Source: a virus
Taxonomy: Duplodnaviria; Heunggongvirae; Uroviricota; Caudoviricetes
Strand: one strand, 5' to 3'
Length of the DNA stretch: 18,376 nt
Virus record (IMG/VR): IMGVR_UViG_2695420859_000010
Below are positions 1-5,293 of this stretch, piece by piece. A program made the translations under genes and the position numbers. Below the pieces are notes generated by a model, which worked only from the letters and a program-made list of their open reading frames with translations, was not told the origin of the DNA and did not search any database. Every line of letters starts with the position of its first letter. Positions within the stretch are counted from its first letter, which is position 1.

Positions 1-13
1 ATTTAATATATCC

Positions 14-547
14 ATGAACACCAAAATCAAATACGGCCTGTCGGCTGCCGTTCTGGCGCTGATTGCCGCTGGTGCGTCTGCGCCTGACATTCTCGACCAG
101 TTTCTGGATGAAAAGGAAGGCAATCACACCACGGCATACCGTGATGGTGCAGGTATCTGGACCATCTGCCGTGGTGCCATCATGGTGGATGGCAAACCTG
201 TCGTTCCGGGCATGAAGTTGTCGAAGGAAAAATGCGACCAGGTTAACGCCATTGAGCGTGATAAAGCGCTGGCGTGGGTGGAGAAAAACATCAGAGTGCC
301 GCTGACCGAACCCCAGAAAGCGGGGATCGCGTCATTCTGTCCGTACAACATTGGTCCCGGTAAGTGTTTCCCGTCGACGTTTTACAGACGAATTAATGCA
401 GGTGATCGCAGGGGAGCATGCGAAGCGATTCGCTGGTGGATTAAGGACGGTGGCAGAGACTGCCGTATTCGCTCAAATAACTGTTACGGTCAGGTATTCC
501 GTCGTGACCAGGAGAGCGCGCTGGCGTGCTGGGGAATCGACAGATAA
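14..547 (+). CDS. R: Endolysin, GH24 (T4/lambda-type) lysozyme with hydrophobic N-terminal signal-anchor (SAR-like)
   Basis: 177-aa ORF. N-terminal hydrophobic stretch (YGLSAAVLALIAAGASAP) followed by the Glu-Asp-Thr catalytic region typical of phage lysozymes (EGNHTTAYRDGAGIWTICRG). Sits immediately upstream of Rz/Rz1. Confidence 0.9.
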   Translation: MNTKIKYGLSAAVLALIAAGASAPDILDQFLDEKEGNHTTAYRDGAGIWTICRGAIMVDGKPVVPGMKLSKEKCDQVNAIERDKALAWVEKNIRVPLTEPQKAGIASFCPYNIGPGKCFPSTFYRRINAGDRRGACEAIRWWIKDGGRDCRIRSNNCYGQVFRRDQESALACWGIDR

Positions 548-636
548 GCAGAATATTTTGCTGAAAAATGAGGTTGGCCAACGCGGGCGGATAACACGAA
601 GTCCTGTGAACTGGCAAAACCTAAGTGAATAAAAGT

Positions 637-678
637 AAAAACCCCGTTTGTTGGCACCAAGCGGGGTTTTGTGTTTCT
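637..678 (+). terminator. Rho-independent terminator-like hairpin downstream of the endolysin gene
   Basis: AAAACCCCGTTTG ... CAAGCGGGGTTTT inverted repeat (about 12 bp, one G-U) followed by a T-rich run; the A-tract upstream makes it potentially bidirectional. Confidence 0.5.
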
Positions 679-703
679 GACCTTGAGTAAGGCAAGGGAG
701 AAC

Positions 704-886
704 ATGGCGAAGTATAAACGAATTCTGTTGAGGTTGACTATGAAAAATGGCCTTGAACTGAAAGCGCCTGTAACTGATGACATCAGCAGAGCACTGGCTT
801 TTGCCATTAAGTGGGTGGCGGTCGGTGTTGCTGTGTCCCCGATGCTGTATGGGCTGGCAAAACTGGTCATTGCGTTGAAATCGTGA
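704..886 (+). CDS. Hypothetical small protein (60 aa) with C-terminal hydrophobic helix
   Basis: ATG at 704 preceded by AAGGGAG with a 5-nt spacer. The track ORF starting at 671 would begin inside the terminator stem, so the internal ATG is preferred. C-terminal segment [27 protein letters not shown] is hydrophobic. Confidence 0.45.
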
Positions 887-900
887 AGGGAGGATTAAGC

Positions 901-1032
901 ATGTCAGACAAACTCATAACGCTGGCGAAGATCCTCTGTGTAATTGTCGGCATTTCATTTTCACTAATGCTGGTTGCTCTTTTTCTTTCCATGGCCTGGA
1001 TGATGTTGTCTTCGTCGGGGTTGCTGGGGTGA
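901..1032 (+). CDS. Hypothetical small membrane protein (43 aa)
   Basis: ATG at 901 preceded by GAAGGGAGG. Protein [43 protein letters not shown] is essentially a single transmembrane helix. Its end overlaps the Rz start. Confidence 0.4.
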
Positions 1033-1502
1033 ACATAAACCGAATGCTTTCCGCGTTTATCGTTATTCTGCTGGTGGCCTGTGGTGCGCTGTGGATGGCA
1101 ACAGACCATTACCGTGATAACGCGATTACCTACAAAGCGCAGCGCGATAACAAAGCCAGTGAACTGAAGCTGGCGAACGCAACCATTACTGATATGCAGG
1201 TGCGCCAGCGCGATGTTGCTGCGCTCGATGCAAAATACTCGAGGGAATTAGCCGATGCGAGAGCTGAAAATGAAACTCTTCGCGCTGACGTTGCCGCTGG
1301 TCGTAAGCGCCTGCGGATCAACGCCACCTGTCCAGGCTCCGTGCGTGAAGCCCCCACCACCTCCGGCGTGGATAATGCAACCGGCCCCCGACTGGCAGAC
1401 ACCGCTGAACGGGATTATTTCACCCTCAGAGAGCGGCTGATGACGATGCACAAGCAACTGGAAGGGGCACAGGAATATATCCGTACTCAGTGCCTGAAAT
1501 AA
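1029..1502 (+). CDS. Rz: Rz i-spanin (inner-membrane spanin subunit)
   Basis: 157-aa ORF with N-terminal TM segment then a coiled-coil periplasmic domain; the [14 protein letters not shown] and [15 protein letters not shown] motifs match lambda Rz. GTG start at 1029; an ATG at 1044 is an alternative. Confidence 0.85.
1255..1440 (+). CDS. Rz1: Rz1 o-spanin, outer-membrane lipoprotein embedded in Rz in the +1 frame
   Basis: Signal peptide with lipobox (LPLVVSAC), then a proline-rich mature region ([26 protein letters not shown]) very close to lambda Rz1. Lies wholly inside Rz in another frame. Confidence 0.8.
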
Positions 1503-1852
1503 GTTTTGTTGATGCGCCGTATCGTCGCTGTATTCCCTCATTAACAGAGACCGCAGCCCGACAGGGAGACTCCTCTGCGCGAGTGTGCGGGGATAATCAA
1601 AAACGATACACACCGGGGTTTACCGTGTTAACGGAGCGCGGCGTTGTCCCCTCATAGTCGCCTGTCCGGTGCGATGGTGGAAGAAGCCGGATGTTTATCA
1701 CTATTAATTGATGACACAGAAATGGATTCATTGAATTTCAGCACGTTTTTGTATTCGTGTTATTGAACATCTGTTTATTTTACTTTTAACATATTGATAA
1801 TAAAAAGAGCTGTAAATCTTTAGATGAGTCGATTTTGTCCGGGGAAGTTCAA

Positions 1853-1993
1853 ATGGATTTTATGCTGACGGTTTCTGGTGTGGTTATCCTGTCCATTGCT
1901 TATACTGCAGATAAATATGGCTGCCATTTGTTATCACGTATTGGCGCTTATTGTTCGTTGATGCTGATTTTCTCGTCGCTTTTTTTTGAGTAA
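1853..1993 (+). CDS. Hypothetical 46-aa hydrophobic peptide in AT-rich moron
   Basis: ATG at 1853 with GGGGAAG a few nt upstream. Translation MDFMLTVSGVVILSIAYTADKYGCHLLSRIGAYCSLMLIFSSLFFE has two hydrophobic segments. Lies in a segment far more AT-rich than its flanks. No recognised homologue. Confidence 0.25.
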   Translation: MDFMLTVSGVVILSIAYTADKYGCHLLSRIGAYCSLMLIFSSLFFE

Positions 1994-2125
1994 GTTATAT
2001 TAATTATAACAAATAATTTTCTGTGTTATTTTTTCAGGCTATCCCGTCAGAGGGGAAGCCTGTACTGCCGGGGAGCGAATGGAAAACTGATGTGTCCGGT
2101 AACTGCGTGTTCTGTGAACACCATG

Positions 2126-2311
2126 TTACTTAATTATGTAATTCATACCCGAACTCTCTGTTGACAGCCTTCTTCTGCAGGCTTCAATAACCCACGCTGA
2201 AAAGTTACTGGACCCTTTATGCTCAAGGGCGATGTTGATCTGTTCAATCATGTGATTGGGGAAACGGATATTGCGGGTTGTGGTTCTGCGGGTCCGGTTT
2301 TTCGATGACAT
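2126..2311 (-). CDS. DUF3950-like small DNA-binding protein, probable ribbon-helix-helix fold (YlcI-like)
   Basis: Minus-strand ORF starting at the internal ATG (MSSKNRTRRTTTRNIRFPNHMIEQINIALEHKGSSNFSAWVIEACRRRL...). Basic N-terminus, short beta-strand and two helices typical of Arc/CopG-like proteins. I recall similar small proteins next to the terminase genes in DLP12-type prophages. Only minus-strand gene in the window. Confidence 0.65.
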   Translation of the reverse strand: MSSKNRTRRTTTRNIRFPNHMIEQINIALEHKGSSNFSAWVIEACRRRLSTESSGMNYIIK

Positions 2312-2352
2312 ATTTATTTCCTTTACTGATTGCCATATGACGGGGATTTTAC

Positions 2353-2718
2353 ATGGCTGAGCTTCGTACACTCCAGAGCAGAATCAAAACTCTGAACACC
2401 CGACGGGTGAATATTCTGAAGGGGGAACAGCGTCGTGTCAGTGGCAGTGCACGTGTTTCCCTCAAGCGTCATATCTGGCTCAGGGATGCCGGGCAGTGCT
2501 GTCTCTGTGGTCGTGTGGTTGACCTCTGTGACAGTGAACTCGATCACCGCATTGCACTTCAGTTCGGTGGTGGTAATGAGGAGACGAATCTCTGGACGCT
2601 CTGTACCGAATGCCATCGCCAGAAGTCAGTCAGTGAAACGGCGAGTGGTATGCCGGACCCGACGCTGCCGGAGGTGTCCGGAGGTCATGGCAGGGCAGAC
2701 GATATCATCGGACTGTGA
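2353..2718 (+). CDS. HNH endonuclease (terminase-associated)
   Basis: 121-aa ORF with Cys pairs and the HNH core (CCLCGRVVDLCDSELDHRIALQFGGGNEETNLWTLCTECHRQK). Directly upstream of the terminase genes, as in HK97-like cos phages. Confidence 0.85.
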   Translation: MAELRTLQSRIKTLNTRRVNILKGEQRRVSGSARVSLKRHIWLRDAGQCCLCGRVVDLCDSELDHRIALQFGGGNEETNLWTLCTECHRQKSVSETASGMPDPTLPEVSGGHGRADDIIGL

Positions 2719-2808
2719 TCCGCCCCGGGGGGGGGATCATCCGGCGAAAAAAACGATCGCCCCGGACACCGCCCCCCGTCTCATGCAGAGAAAAAATTCC
2801 TGTTTCAG

Positions 2809-2936
2809 GCCAGTTAACATGTTAACTGGCTGCCCGGGCATTTTTTCGGTTTTTATCTTTATTATTCAGTTTGTTGTGCGAAAAAAATGTTAACTGGCTT
2901 TTTCAGCAAATGTTAACCAGGCAGCAGTTAACATTT
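2809..2936. promoter_or_regulatory. Array of ATGTTAAC half-sites: a perfect 22-bp palindrome plus three further copies; candidate terminase small-subunit binding sites (cosB-like) or operator
   Basis: GCCAGTTAACATGTTAACTGGC at 2809-2830 is its own reverse complement. Further copies at 2887-2898 (ATGTTAACTGGC), 2910-2919 and 2925-2934, the last two forming AAATGTTAAC-N9-GTTAACATTT. AT-rich tract between them. Function is inferred from position between HNH and TerS. Confidence 0.4.
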
Positions 2937-3008
2937 GCGGCATGAGACGCCGGGAAAAATGGGCTGAACCATACCCGGCTGAGTGCGTTATGGACCCGGG
3001 AGGAGGCT

Positions 3009-3572
3009 GTGCTGACAACGCAAAAACGAAAATTTGCGCTGGCGCTCATGTCCGGGAAAAACAAAACAGCGTCAGCCATTGCCGCCGGTTATTCGGCGAA
3101 GACCGCCAGGGTTAAAGGCTCGCAGCTGGCAAAAGATCCGGAGGTGCTCGCGTTTATAGCCCGTAAACAGTGCGAAACGGTGGAGATGGATGAGGTTCCT
3201 GTTTACCGGCAGAAAAAATCAGAGCAGGAGGATAAACCCCGTCGCCGTGAGGTGGCTGCAATACCACAGCCGGACGAAAACAATCCGGAGATGCCTCCGC
3301 CCGCGGTGATATCTCATGGTATTGAATATATGGAGGATGGTCTTCCCGATCCGGTGAAAGCTATGGGGCAGATCCTGGTGGAAAACCTGATAATTGACCC
3401 GAAACTGGCACTGGATGCGGCCTGGCGACTGGCGCAGTTCACACACCATAAAAAAGGCGATGCCGGTAAAAAATCGGCAAAAGGTGATGCCGCGAAAAAA
3501 GCGGCTAACCGTTTTGCGGTGCCACCACCTCCCCGACTGGTGGTGAATAACCAGAATGAGGAAAGCGGATGA
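3009..3572 (+). CDS. Terminase small subunit (P27-family-like)
   Basis: 187-aa ORF, GTG start after GGGAGGAGG. N-terminal HTH-like region (KRKFALALMSGKNKTASAIAAGYSAKTARVKGSQLAKDPEV) typical of phage small terminases. Stop overlaps the TerL start (ATGA). Confidence 0.8.
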   Translation: MLTTQKRKFALALMSGKNKTASAIAAGYSAKTARVKGSQLAKDPEVLAFIARKQCETVEMDEVPVYRQKKSEQEDKPRRREVAAIPQPDENNPEMPPPAVISHGIEYMEDGLPDPVKAMGQILVENLIIDPKLALDAAWRLAQFTHHKKGDAGKKSAKGDAAKKAANRFAVPPPPRLVVNNQNEESG

Positions 3573-5230
3573 TACCTGTATGGAGCACGGCATGTCCGGA
3601 CTGGGCAGAGCGCCTGAAAAAGGGACTGTCGATTATTCCGGCTCCGATTTATCCGGACCAGGCTGCACATGCCCTGGCGATTTTTAAACAACTGCGAATT
3701 GTGGATGCACCGGGTAGCCCGACATTCGGGGAGTCCTGTGCACCGTGGGTGTTTGACCTGGTGGCGGCCCTGTTTGGCTCCTACGATGCGCAGACCGGTG
3801 TTCGCCATATCAAGGAAGTGTTTATCCTTATCCCCAAGAAAAACAGTAAGTCCACGCTGGCCGCGGGGATCATGATGACGGCGCTGTTACTGAACTGGCG
3901 GCAGGCGGCGGGCTACACCATTCTGGCCCCGACCGTGGAGGTGGCGGCTAACGCCTTCAACCCTGCCCGGGATATGGTACGACGGGACGATGATCTGGAT
4001 GACCTCTGTCAGGTGCAGACACATATCCGGACCATCACCCATCGGGTGACGGACACCACCCTGAAGGTGGTGGCAGCCGATCCGAATACGGTGTCCGGTA
4101 TCAAGTCCGTGGGGACACTGATTGATGAACTGTGGCTGTTTGGCAAGCAGTACAAAGCGGAAGACATGCTACGTGAAGCCATCGGCGGGCTTGCCTCCCG
4201 TCCGGAAGGATTTGTGGTGTACACAACCACCCAGTCGAATGAACCGCCTGCCGGGGTGTTCAGACAGAAACTGCAGTATGCCCGGGATGTCCGTGACGGC
4301 AAAATTCATGATCCGCACTTTCTGCCGGTGATTTTTGAGCATCCTCCTGAAATGGTGGAAAGCGGGGCTCACCTGCTGATGGAAAACCTCGCCATGGTCA
4401 ATCCGAATCTCGGTTATTCGGTGGATGAGGCTTTTCTGTACCGGGAGTACCGTAAAGCCCGGGAGGCTGGTGAGGAAGCATTTCGTGGCTTCATGTCAAA
4501 ACACGCCAATGTGGAAATCGGTCTTGCCCTGCGTTCTGACCGCTGGGCGGGCGCGGATTTCTGGGAGCAGCAGGGCAGGCGCGTCAGCCTGGACGATATC
4601 CTGCAGCGCGCTGATGTGGTGACGGTGGGGATTGACGGCGGGGGCCTGGATGATCTGCTGGGAATGTACGTGACTGGCCGTGACAGGGAAACCCGCGAAT
4701 GGCTGGGCTGGGGCCATGCCTGGGTGCATGAAACCGCGGTGGTCAGACGGAAGAGTGAGGCATCCCGGTTTCAGGATTTTGTGGCCTGTGGAGACATGAC
4801 GATTGTCCGTCGGGTCGGGGATGACACGGCGGAAGTGGCGGAGTATGTGCGTCGTATTCATGAGGCTGAGTTACTGGATCATATCGGTATTGACCCGTCA
4901 GGTGTGGGGCAGATTCTGGATTCACTGGCGGAAGCCGGGATCCCCGATGAGAGTGTGGTGGGGATAAGCCAGGGCTGGAAGCTGGGCGGGGCCATCAAAA
5001 CCACCGAGCGCAAACTGGCTGAGGGAGTGCTGGTGCATGGTGGTCAGCCACTGATGGCCTGGTGCGTTGGCAATGCCCGGGTGGAGCCTAAAGGTAACGC
5101 CATTCTTATCACCAAACAGGCCAGTGGACGGGGAAAAATTGACCCGCTGATGGCGCTGTTCAATGCGGTCTCCCTGATGTCCCTTAACCCGGAACCGAAA
5201 AAGAAAGAATATGTGGTTTTTTTCATATAA
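3569..5230 (+). CDS. Terminase large subunit
   Basis: 553-aa ORF with a Walker-A-like ATPase segment (ILIPKKNSKSTLAAG) and a C-terminal nuclease-like region; translationally coupled to TerS. Confidence 0.9.
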   Translation: MIPVWSTACPDWAERLKKGLSIIPAPIYPDQAAHALAIFKQLRIVDAPGSPTFGESCAPWVFDLVAALFGSYDAQTGVRHIKEVFILIPKKNSKSTLAAGIMMTALLLNWRQAAGYTILAPTVEVAANAFNPARDMVRRDDDLDDLCQVQTHIRTITHRVTDTTLKVVAADPNTVSGIKSVGTLIDELWLFGKQYKAEDMLREAIGGLASRPEGFVVYTTTQSNEPPAGVFRQKLQYARDVRDGKIHDPHFLPVIFEHPPEMVESGAHLLMENLAMVNPNLGYSVDEAFLYREYRKAREAGEEAFRGFMSKHANVEIGLALRSDRWAGADFWEQQGRRVSLDDILQRADVVTVGIDGGGLDDLLGMYVTGRDRETREWLGWGHAWVHETAVVRRKSEASRFQDFVACGDMTIVRRVGDDTAEVAEYVRRIHEAELLDHIGIDPSGVGQILDSLAEAGIPDESVVGISQGWKLGGAIKTTERKLAEGVLVHGGQPLMAWCVGNARVEPKGNAILITKQASGRGKIDPLMALFNAVSLMSLNPEPKKKEYVVFFI

Positions 5231-5254
5231 CCCTGTTCACACTGTAACCATCAC

Positions 5255-5280
5255 GAACCGCTCCGGCGGTTTTTTTATTT
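5255..5280 (+). terminator. Terminator-like hairpin plus T-tract immediately upstream of the capsid gene RBS
   Basis: GAACCGC-TCCG-GCGGTT stem-loop followed by TTTTTTTATTTT, then CAGGAGGC and the GTG start at 5294. Confidence 0.4.
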
Positions 5281-5293
5281 TCAGGAGGCTGAT

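What the first reader, a model, noticed from the sequence alone, without database searches (positions are those of the whole stretch)
1680..2130. AT-rich moron island between the spanin genes and the packaging module
The stretch from about 1690 to 2130 is visibly far more AT-rich than the flanking phage genes, which are GC-rich. It occupies the slot where lambdoid phages carry accessory cargo (the bor position in lambda). It contains no ORF of 60 aa or more on either strand; only a 46-aa hydrophobic ORF is visible, so it may encode regulatory RNA, promoters or small proteins. Such slots are recurrent sites for host-interaction or defence cargo.
Basis: seen in the sequence. Interest (0 to 1): 0.5.

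Follow-up and report, generated by a model that had tools for sequence, protein, structure and literature searches.

The report
AT-rich prophage cargo, tiny membrane-peptide gene
The AT-rich stretch is a real, swappable accessory cassette in an E. coli lambda-like prophage that probably encodes one 46-residue membrane peptide of unknown function; this is an ordinary kind of phage cargo rather than a new kind of system.

Summary
Window 1699-2040 has GC 0.32 against a window mean of 0.56, and it is the only stretch of the 18.4 kb below 0.42. Comparison with related prophages shows a discrete 458-bp mosaic cassette (1699-2156). It lies between a widely conserved non-coding block (1512-1698) and the antisense ylcI/ynfO gene. 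In E. coli EC958 the same junction holds 42 bp. Other prophages carry a TonB-like lipoprotein or pchB there. The cassette is in 734 of 5,426 complete E. coli genomes and sits next to two different packaging modules. Its only credible content is a 46-codon ORF (1853-1993, +), annotated by RefSeq as hypothetical WP_000347013.1. It has a Shine-Dalgarno-like site and is predicted to form a two-helix hydrophobic hairpin. It matches no Pfam, NCBIfam, PHROG or PADLOC family and has no relatives outside E. coli among 1.84 billion representative proteins. Evidence that it codes is moderate: an ORF this long and hydrophobic arises in 1.5% of shuffles, and within-lineage SNPs are mostly synonymous. No known RNA family, significant RNA fold, above-chance promoter or convincing terminator was found. 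Verdict: a moron carrying an orphan small membrane-peptide gene, function untested, low to moderate interest.

The parts
1512..1698 (.). Conserved, GC-normal (0.57) non-coding block that forms the left border of the cassette. In prophages without the cassette it abuts the 3' end of ylcI.
   Evidence: BLAST against EC958, JLK-2012, Stx1 phage and DLP12-like loci. Window 1640-1698 matches 2,321 of 5,426 E. coli genomes, with up to 11 places per genome. No annotated CDS lies over it in the RefSeq records examined. No covariation signal.
1699..2156 (.). The mosaic accessory cassette (moron), 458 bp. It is replaced by 42 bp in EC958, by 653 bp carrying a TonB-like lipoprotein gene in JLK-2012, and by 266 bp in Stx1 phages.
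   Evidence: Present at 95% identity or more in 734 of 5,426 complete E. coli genomes. No match in plasmids. Only 2 of 50,697 phage records carry it.
1699..2034 (.). AT-rich core (GC about 0.32). It is the most conserved part of the cassette across both lineages and ends in a T6 run.
   Evidence: The second lineage (L102) stays nearly identical up to 2034 and then drops to about 75% identity.
1699..1852 (+). 154-nt AT-rich leader (GC 0.30) upstream of ORF46. It holds sigma-70-like candidates: TTGAAC(1763)-18-TAACAT(1787) on +, and TTTACA(1816)-17-TATGTT(1793) on -. These are predictions only.
   Evidence: (PWM; 56% of shuffles score as well). The leader is as conserved as the ORF and has no indels.
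1841..1847 (+). Shine-Dalgarno-like GGGGAAG (GAGGAAG in one O157-type haplotype), 5 nt before the ATG.
   Evidence: Sequence. The polymorphism at 1842 is seen.
1853..1993 (+). ORF46: MDFMLTVSGVVILSIAYTADKYGCHLLSRIGAYCSLMLIFSSLFFE. Predicted two-helix hydrophobic hairpin, an orphan small protein (RefSeq WP_000347013.1, 'hypothetical protein').
   Evidence: PGAP CDS. No family. Searches find only E. coli relatives. AF2 predicts helices 2-22 and 24-45, pLDDT 76. GRAVY is 1.11; length plus hydrophobicity is reached in 1.5% of shuffles. The exact protein is indexed in 14,746 blocks of assemblies.
1980..1987 (+). Polymorphic T8 homopolymer in the last codons of ORF46. T7, T8 and T9 alleles give the C-termini ...SLFLSKLY, ...SLFFE and ...SLFF.
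1994..2011 (-). AT palindrome GTTATA-TTAAT-TATAAC. On the minus strand it contains an extended -10 motif TGTTATAAT (2011-2003), which would start an RNA antisense to ORF46 near 1996. This is a prediction only.
   Evidence: It is invariant in the main lineage but deleted in the second lineage.
2035..2062 (.). Stable hairpin CAGGCTATCCCGTCAGAGGGGAAGCCTG. The T-run lies 5' of it on the + strand and an A-run lies 3' of it on the - strand, so it is not a canonical terminator in either direction.
   Evidence: local folds z = -2.5 and -2.7. The G2052C variant strengthens the inner stem.
2126..2311 (-). ylcI/ynfO-family gene (DUF3950; by eye it looks like a ribbon-helix-helix fold). It is convergent with ORF46, and its last ~10 codons belong to the cassette.
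   Evidence: Pfam PF13132 E = 8e-20. NCBIfam YlcI_YnfO_N. phrog_949. PGAP annotation.

Best explanation
Window 1699-2156 is a horizontally exchanged accessory cassette (a 'moron'). It sits in the Rz -> ylcI slot of the late region of a lambdoid E. coli prophage.

Its functional content is most likely one small gene, ORF46 (1853-1993, + strand). The product is a 46-residue peptide that folds as a hairpin of two hydrophobic helices and inserts into the inner membrane. The basic loop (K21, R29) would face the cytoplasm and the acidic termini (D2, E46) the periplasm.

Shown here: the composition anomaly, the cassette boundaries, its presence or absence across prophages, its association with two packaging-module types, the conservation of the ORF, its SD-like site and its orphan status.

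Inferred: the gene points the same way as the late operon, so it should be transcribed by Q-antiterminated read-through from PR' during lytic growth. It may also be transcribed at a low level in lysogens from a sigma-70-like promoter in the 154-nt AT-rich leader, which is DNA of a kind H-NS typically silences.

My best guess, untested: the peptide acts within the membrane on the host envelope, for example in superinfection exclusion or in modulating lysis timing or a membrane protein. I do not think it acts as a soluble regulator.
For: - Composition: unique GC minimum of the window.
- Cassette nature: clean replacement against EC958, JLK-2012 and Stx1 phages. The same slot holds pchB in Sakai Sp11, in the same orientation.
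- Spread: 734 of 5,426 complete E. coli genomes, flanked by either HK97-type or lambda-type terminases.
- Gene call: PGAP annotates the ORF in independent genomes.
- Translation signal: GGGGAAG or GAGGAAG lies 5 nt upstream of the ATG.
- Chance test: an ORF of at least 46 codons with GRAVY of at least 1.11 appears in only 44 of 3,000 composition-preserving shuffles.
- Polymorphism: in the main lineage 4 of 5 internal SNPs are synonymous third-position changes, plus one ATG->GTG. In the second lineage the stop changes TAA->TGA and the frame stays open.
- Indels: in the 53 haplotypes the only ORF indels are in the terminal T-run, and they alter only the last few (1-3) residues, adding up to 5.
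- Structure: AF2 gives two helices at pLDDT 76.
Against: - ORF length alone is unremarkable: 28-30% of shuffles give an ATG ORF of at least 46 codons.
- T-rich DNA tends to encode hydrophobic residues.
- The second lineage carries 5 non-synonymous against 2 synonymous changes, and it lies in a deleted, defective prophage.
- The non-coding leader is as conserved as the ORF.
- Total diversity is very low, so selection tests have little power.
- There are no homologues outside E. coli and no family match.
- Promoter candidates are no better than in shuffled sequence, and no convincing terminator was found.
- I found no transcriptome, ribosome-profiling or proteome evidence.
Confidence: 0.55

Rival explanations
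1. The cassette is non-coding AT-rich DNA and ORF46 is a chance ORF. On this reading it is a recombination-junction filler, or a regulatory or H-NS-bound spacer, for example the 3' untranslated and termination region of the convergent ylcI gene.
For: - 28-30% of shuffles give an ORF this long.
- The non-coding leader is conserved as well as the ORF.
- There is no purifying signal in the second lineage.
- The ORF is an orphan.
- An alternative AT-rich filler without any ORF over 25 aa occupies the same slot in Stx1 phages and Sakai Sp12.
Against: - Length and hydrophobicity together are reached in only 1.5% of shuffles.
- The SD-like site has correct spacing.
- SNPs in the main lineage are biased towards synonymous changes.
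- The frame is kept open across thousands of contigs, including through changes of the start and stop codons.
Confidence: 0.25
2. The cassette is a type I toxin-antitoxin-like module. ORF46 would be a membrane-damaging peptide whose translation is held in check by an antisense RNA. That RNA would start at the extended -10 motif TGTTATAAT (2011-2003, minus strand) or arise by read-through of the convergent ylcI transcript. The module could stabilise the prophage or abort infections.
For: - The peptide is small (under 60 aa) and hydrophobic.
- A perfect extended -10 motif lies on the opposite strand just past the stop codon.
- ylcI is convergent with no convincing terminator between it and ORF46.
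- A 12-bp inverted repeat (1711-1722 / 2018-2029) brackets the unit. It resembles a 5'-3' fold-back, and the 1713 G/A polymorphism keeps the pairing.
Against: - There is no similarity to any known type I toxin or antitoxin RNA family.
- It has two helices and an acidic C-terminus, whereas the usual form is a single helix with a basic tail.
- My estimate is that the -10 motif would occur by chance at about 7% in such AT-rich DNA, and it is deleted in the second lineage.
- RNA folds are not significantly stable.
- Inverted repeats of this size are common in this sequence.
Confidence: 0.1
3. The cassette encodes a trans-acting small RNA, as the prophage anti-sRNAs AgvB/AsxR or the Pas sRNAs are encoded elsewhere in such prophages, and the ORF is incidental.
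For: Prophage moron sites of pathogenic E. coli are rich in sRNA genes (PMC4104026; bioRxiv 10.64898/2026.05.13.724894). The non-coding parts of the core are well conserved.
Against: - No Rfam match even at E <= 1.
- No intrinsic terminator.
- Fold z-scores are only -1.8 and -1.3.
- The described anti-sRNAs and Pas sRNAs lie at the PR'/Q-holin site, not at the Rz-terminase slot.
Confidence: 0.07
4. The AT core is the remnant of a miniature inverted-repeat transposable element, bounded by the 12-bp inverted repeats at 1711-1722 and 2018-2029.
For: The inverted repeats lie near both ends of the AT core. Its size (about 320 bp) and AT-richness are typical of such elements.
Against: - No target-site duplication is visible.
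- The repeats do not coincide with the comparative cassette boundaries 1699 and 2156.
- All 788 places found in the E. coli genome search (785 chromosomal, 3 on plasmids) match the cassette at high identity, and every context examined is the same prophage slot; the element is not dispersed.
- No related sequence turned up elsewhere.
Confidence: 0.03

Closest known systems
Lambda bor / E. coli iss moron (between Rz and the packaging genes)
   Same: Accessory gene in the slot between the spanin genes and the packaging genes of lambdoid prophages. It is present in some phages and absent in collinear relatives. In a DLP12-like prophage iss lies between rzpD and ylcI.
   Different: Bor/Iss is a ~97-aa outer-membrane lipoprotein encoded on the strand opposite to the late genes, and it sits left of the conserved block 1512-1698. 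ORF46 is 46 aa, has no lipobox, lies on the late-gene strand and sits right of that block. There is no sequence similarity.
pchB (PerC-family regulator) in O157:H7 Sakai prophage Sp11
   Same: It occupies the same Rz -> ylcI-remnant -> terminase slot, in the same orientation as the late genes. This shows that the slot carries host-interaction cargo.
   Different: Pch is a 104-aa soluble transcription activator with a known family. ORF46 is an unrelated hydrophobic peptide.
Small inner-membrane moron proteins that block phage entry (e.g. HK97 gp15, T4 Imm); from general knowledge, not tested here
   Same: They are prophage- or phage-encoded inner-membrane proteins carried as accessory cargo. 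This is the functional analogy I favour for ORF46.
   Different: Those proteins are larger (about 80-180 aa) and have demonstrated exclusion phenotypes. ORF46 has no similarity to any family, and no phenotype is known.
Type I toxins of E. coli (Hok, Ldr, Ibs, TisB, ShoB, ZorO, DinQ)
   Same: Hydrophobic peptides under 60 aa, often on prophages. An opposite-strand promoter-like motif overlaps the ORF46 3' end.
   Different: There is no family match for the peptide or for an antitoxin RNA. ORF46 has two helices rather than one. No antisense RNA has been demonstrated.
Class II holins / pinholins (two transmembrane domains)
   Same: Two predicted transmembrane helices, encoded on the late transcript next to lysis genes.
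   Different: At 46 aa ORF46 is much shorter (such holins are roughly 65-95 aa). It lies downstream of Rz rather than upstream of the endolysin gene, and it has no Pfam holin match. Related prophages already carry a Phage_holin_2_1 holin.

Membership tests
Moron (accessory 'more DNA' cassette of lambdoid phages, sensu Juhala/Hendrix) | Extra DNA present between two genes that are adjacent, or nearly so, in related phages. | tested here: met
   458 bp here against 42 bp in EC958 between the same conserved block and ylcI. Different inserts occupy the slot in JLK-2012 and Stx1 phages.
Moron (accessory 'more DNA' cassette of lambdoid phages, sensu Juhala/Hendrix) | Base composition distinct from the surrounding phage genes. 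| tested here: met
   GC 0.32 against 0.56. It is the unique minimum of the window, about 5 sd below the mean.
Moron (accessory 'more DNA' cassette of lambdoid phages, sensu Juhala/Hendrix) | Own promoter and terminator flanking the gene. | tested here: inconclusive
   Sigma-70-like candidates exist but score no better than shuffled sequence. No canonical intrinsic terminator was found.
Moron (accessory 'more DNA' cassette of lambdoid phages, sensu Juhala/Hendrix) | Expression from the repressed prophage. | not testable with these tools
   This needs RNA-seq or a reporter in a lysogen. No data were found in the papers searched.
Bor/Iss lipoprotein family | Sequence membership and a lipoprotein signal peptide with a lipobox cysteine. 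| tested here: not met
   No Pfam, NCBIfam or PHROG hit. The ORF46 N-terminus MDFMLTVSG has no lipobox.
Type I toxin-antitoxin systems | Small hydrophobic membrane peptide (under about 60 aa). | tested here: met
   46 aa, GRAVY 1.11, two predicted helices.
Type I toxin-antitoxin systems | Cis- or divergently encoded antisense RNA antitoxin. | tested here: inconclusive
   There is only a promoter-like extended -10 motif on the opposite strand. No Rfam antitoxin family matches. No structured RNA is evident.
Type I toxin-antitoxin systems | Homology to a described toxin family (Hok, Ldr, Ibs, TisB, ShoB, Zor, DinQ and others). | tested here: not met
   No hits in Pfam or NCBIfam. phmmer against 1.84 billion representatives returns only the protein itself.
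Type I toxin-antitoxin systems | Toxicity on overexpression. | not testable with these tools
   Requires an experiment.
Holins (class II / pinholin) | Family membership, and position with the endolysin gene in the lysis cassette. | tested here: not met
   No holin Pfam or PHROG match. The ORF lies 350 nt downstream of Rz, and related prophages carry a separate Phage_holin_2_1 gene.
Known prophage sRNAs (AgvB, AsxR, Esr41, STnc100, DicF, Sok and others in Rfam 15) | Covariance-model match at or near the gathering score. | tested here: not met
   No match in 1-3200 at E <= 1 apart from a terminator-like rimP hit at 628-702. Nothing in the whole window at gathering scores.

The most novel reading that the evidence does not exclude
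ORF46 is a new, E. coli-restricted family of two-helix membrane micro-protein with a defence-type role. It would act either as the toxin of a type I TA-like or abortive-infection module, controlled by antisense transcription from ylcI or from the TGTTATAAT promoter, or as a minimal superinfection-exclusion factor. The polymorphic T-run (T7/T8/T9) would tune its C-terminus.
Probability: 0.12. Interest if true: 0.5.

Novelty: new member of a known kind. Interest (0 to 1): 0.25.

Why it matters
The cassette is carried by about one in seven complete E. coli genomes, including O104:H4, O157:H7, ExPEC and APEC strains. It sits in a slot that elsewhere holds virulence or serum-resistance cargo (pchB, iss/bor). 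If the 46-residue peptide is made, it is an uncharacterised and very common prophage-encoded membrane micro-protein that could affect phage exclusion, lysis timing or envelope physiology. If it is not made, the segment is simply AT-rich junction DNA. Either way it illustrates a known phenomenon, not a new one.

Tried and rejected
- **Known RNA families.** Rfam at E <= 1 over 1-3200 and at gathering scores over the whole window found nothing relevant.
- **Protein families.** Pfam, NCBIfam, PHROGs and PADLOC gave no family for ORF46.
- **Remote homologues.** The word-indexed search of 5.8 billion proteins and the exhaustive phmmer on 1.84 billion representatives returned only E. coli copies. The few other hits were long repetitive proteins, which I treat as spurious.
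- **Other species.** A degenerate DNA pattern for the ORF had no match in 185,579 species-representative genomes. An exact 23-mer from the leader hit one Flavobacterium contig, but similarity extends only 53 bp at 83%. I treat this as a chance AT-rich match.
- **Plasmids.** No match.
- **Other ORFs in the cassette.** The 36-aa + strand ORF (2023-2133) and the 25-aa - strand ORF (2124-2047, starting 1 nt after the ylcI stop) were rejected. Their polymorphisms are non-synonymous or are indels.
- **RNA structure.** Fold z-scores are -1.8 (+) and -1.3 (-) for the whole core. Only local hairpins at 2035-2062 and 2107-2121 stand out, and neither has a proper U-tail.
- **Promoters.** PWM candidates are no better than in shuffled sequence.
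- **Covariation in the conserved block 1512-1698.** There is too little variation to judge.
- **Literature.** No paper holds the peptide string or the WP accession. The supplements of the Sakai small-gene paper, the Enterobacteriaceae microproteome paper and the EDL933 TSS paper contain neither the peptide nor the cassette sequences. The anti-sRNA and Pas sRNA papers place those RNAs at the PR' site, not here.
- **Sakai.** I tried to locate the cassette there in order to use published Ribo-seq and CRAC data. Sp15, Sp12 and Sp11 lack it, and I did not scan the other prophages.
- **Transposable-element idea.** Rejected because there is no target-site duplication and the sequence is not dispersed.
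Full report
**Context.** The window is the late region of a lambdoid E. coli prophage. The genes, in order:
- endolysin, 14-547;
- two small transmembrane ORFs, 713-886 and 901-1032;
- Rz (1029-1502) with embedded Rz1 (1255-1440);
- a gap that holds the finding;
- an antisense YlcI/YnfO (DUF3950) gene, 2126-2311;
- an HNH endonuclease gene, 2353-2718;
- terS (3009-3572) and terL (3569-5230), followed by head and tail genes.

This rests. Near-identical loci in public genomes carry the same annotation.

**What the segment is, from comparison.** Related prophages align with the window up to about 1691-1699 and again from 2157-2177. Between those points they differ:
- E. coli EC958 has 42 bp.
- Stx1-converting phages and Sakai Sp12 have a different 266-bp AT-rich filler with no ORF over 25 aa.
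- Phage JLK-2012 has 653 bp encoding a TonB_C-domain lipoprotein.

The unit is therefore a 458-bp cassette, 1699-2156, whose right edge lies inside the last ~10 codons of ylcI. To its left is a GC-normal non-coding block, 1512-1698. That block is itself very widespread: window 1640-1698 matches 2,321 of 5,426 complete E. coli genomes, with up to 11 places per genome. In prophages without the cassette it abuts the ylcI stop codon.

In a DLP12-like prophage the bor homologue iss lies between rzpD and this block. In Sakai Sp11 pchB lies between Rz and a ylcI remnant, in the same orientation as the late genes. The Rz-to-terminase interval is thus a proven cargo site, and this cassette is one of its alternative fillings.

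**Distribution.** The cassette occurs at 95% identity or more in 734 of 5,426 complete E. coli genomes, with 1-3 copies each. The strains include O104:H4, O157:H7, and ExPEC and APEC isolates. The phage collection holds only 2 records with it and the plasmid collection none. The two patterns scanned against 185,579 species-representative genomes gave no true copy. It appears next to either HK97-type packaging genes (HNH, Terminase_2, TerL) or lambda-type ones (Nu1, GpA, gpW), and always with ylcI. This is classic lambdoid mosaicism.

**What is inside.** The only credible feature is ORF46 (MDFMLTVSGVVILSIAYTADKYGCHLLSRIGAYCSLMLIFSSLFFE).

Evidence that it codes:
- PGAP calls it in independent genomes as WP_000347013.1.
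- An SD-like GGGGAAG (GAGGAAG in one haplotype) lies 5 nt upstream of the ATG.
- An ATG ORF of at least 46 codons with GRAVY of at least 1.11 occurs in only 1.5% of composition-preserving shuffles. Length alone is reached in 28-30%.
- Among 53 haplotypes of the main lineage, the ORF's substitutions are 4 synonymous third-position changes, 1 non-synonymous change and one ATG->GTG. Its only indels are in the T8 run at 1980-1987.
- That T-run is polymorphic (T7/T8/T9). The alleles give the C-termini ...SLFLSKLY...SLFFE and ...SLFF, each seen on hundreds of contigs, so only the last few residues vary.
- AlphaFold2 without an alignment predicts two helices, 2-22 and 24-45, at pLDDT 76.

Evidence against:
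- A second lineage carries S14F, C24Y, L36V and E46D, with or without L5Q. That is 5 non-synonymous against 2 synonymous changes, with TAA->TGA at the stop. This lineage always sits in a prophage in which ylcI, the HNH gene and the 5' part of terS are deleted.
- The non-coding leader is as conserved as the ORF.
- Total diversity is too low for a strong test of selection.

The protein is a true orphan. It has no Pfam, NCBIfam, PHROG or PADLOC family. The 5.8-billion-protein search found only E. coli sequences. Exhaustive phmmer against 1.84 billion representatives found nothing credible. I put the probability that it is a real gene at roughly 0.6-0.7.

**RNA-level alternatives.**
- No Rfam family matches.
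- Folding of either strand of the core is not significantly stable, with z = -1.8 and -1.3.
- A stable hairpin at 2035-2062 has its T-run on the wrong side to act as a terminator. A smaller hairpin at 2107-2121 overlaps the ylcI stop.
- Sigma-70-like candidates exist: + strand TTGAAC-18-TAACAT (TSS about 1799); - strand TTTACA-17-TATGTT (TSS about 1781); and a - strand extended -10 TGTTATAAT at 2011-2003 that would start an RNA antisense to ORF46. In this AT-rich DNA, 56% of shuffles give an equally good + strand candidate.
- A 12-bp inverted repeat (1711-1722 / 2018-2029) brackets the AT core. The 1713 G/A polymorphism keeps it paired. Repeats of this size are frequent here.

These features keep a type I toxin-antitoxin-like reading open, but they do not establish it. 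The described prophage anti-sRNAs (AgvB, AsxR) and the Pas sRNAs lie at the PR'/Q-holin moron site, not in this slot (PMC4104026; bioRxiv 10.64898/2026.05.13.724894).

**Mechanism proposed.** Shown: the cassette is mosaic cargo, and it carries a conserved, SD-preceded, hydrophobic 46-codon ORF co-oriented with the late operon. Inferred:
- The ORF is transcribed by Q-antiterminated PR' read-through in lytic growth.
- It may also be transcribed from a weak promoter of its own, probably H-NS-silenced, in lysogens.
- The peptide inserts as an N-out/C-out hairpin, following the positive-inside rule (K21 and R29 in the loop).
- It acts within the membrane, in exclusion, lysis timing or envelope modulation.

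Rivals, in order of weight: non-coding filler (0.25), type I TA-like module (0.10), sRNA gene (0.07), transposable-element remnant (0.03).

**Comparison and novelty.** Functionally and positionally this is a moron like lambda bor, iss or pchB, but with unrelated content. It fails the membership tests for Bor/Iss, holins, known type I toxins and known sRNAs. It meets the comparative and compositional criteria for a moron. The promoter/terminator criterion is inconclusive and prophage expression is untested. RefSeq already annotates the ORF as a hypothetical protein, and I found no paper that mentions it. I file it as a new member of a known kind. Interest is low to moderate and comes mainly from how common the cassette is in pathogenic and commensal E. 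coli and from the complete lack of functional data.

**Limits.** I found no transcriptomic or translational data for this locus. Sakai prophages Sp11, Sp12 and Sp15 lack the cassette, and I did not check the remaining Sakai or EDL933 prophages. Published EHEC Ribo-seq, CRAC and TSS datasets could therefore not be brought to bear.

Noticed in passing
window 713-886 and 901-1032 (+): Two small predicted membrane ORFs (57 and 43 aa; phrog_1115 and phrog_4906, function unknown) sit between the endolysin gene and Rz. O157-type relatives carry an antirepressor gene and a 48-aa ORF at the same place, so this looks like a second variable cargo slot inside the lysis cassette.
   Followed up: partly
window 1512-1698: A GC-normal non-coding block lies between Rz and ylcI. 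Its right end (1640-1698) matches 2,321 of 5,426 E. coli genomes, with up to 11 places per genome. No CDS is annotated over it in the records examined. RNAalifold on 14 copies shows almost no variation and so gives no covariation verdict. Its function is unknown; it could be the ylcI 3' region.
   Followed up: partly
window 2717-2738 and 2813-2934: The octamer ATGTTAAC occurs 5 times, all within 2813-2934 upstream of terS (expected 0.29 in the whole window). Two copies form the perfect palindrome CAGTTAACATGTTAACTG. A GATCCGCCCCGGGGGGGGGATC element lies just after the HNH gene. Together these probably mark the cos / small-terminase recognition region.
   Followed up: partly
window 1980-1987: The T8 homopolymer inside the last codons of ORF46 is polymorphic (T7, T8, T9) across hundreds of contigs. 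Every version reaches a stop within 0-5 codons, so only the C-terminal tail of the peptide changes. I could not tell whether this is slippage, sequencing error or tuning.
   Followed up: partly
L107 (E. coli O157:H7 Sakai, prophage Sp11) 4595-5690: The LEE-activating regulator gene pchB occupies the equivalent slot between Rz and a ylcI remnant, in the orientation of the late genes and next to a lambda-type Nu1-like packaging gene.
   Followed up: yes
window 628-702: A GC-rich hairpin (about 640-672) flanked by A- and T-runs lies between the endolysin gene and the next ORF. It gives a weak, sub-threshold Rfam hit to the rimP leader (25.6 bits against a gathering score of 47). It is most simply a bidirectional intrinsic terminator inside the late operon.
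   Followed up: no
window 2126-2352: ylcI (DUF3950; by eye the sequence looks like a ribbon-helix-helix DNA-binding fold, with a weak HicB-like PHROG hit) is divergent from the HNH gene with only 41 bp between the start codons. The ylcI promoter must therefore lie inside the HNH coding region. ylcI is also convergent with ORF46 with no clear terminator between them.
   Followed up: no
L102-L104 and L119-L123: A second ORF46 lineage (S14F, C24Y, L36V, E46D) is always found in a prophage where a deletion fuses the cassette at about window 2105 to the 3' part of terS. The deletion removes ylcI, the HNH gene and the putative cos region, so this is a packaging-defective remnant that still keeps the ORF open.
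   Followed up: partly
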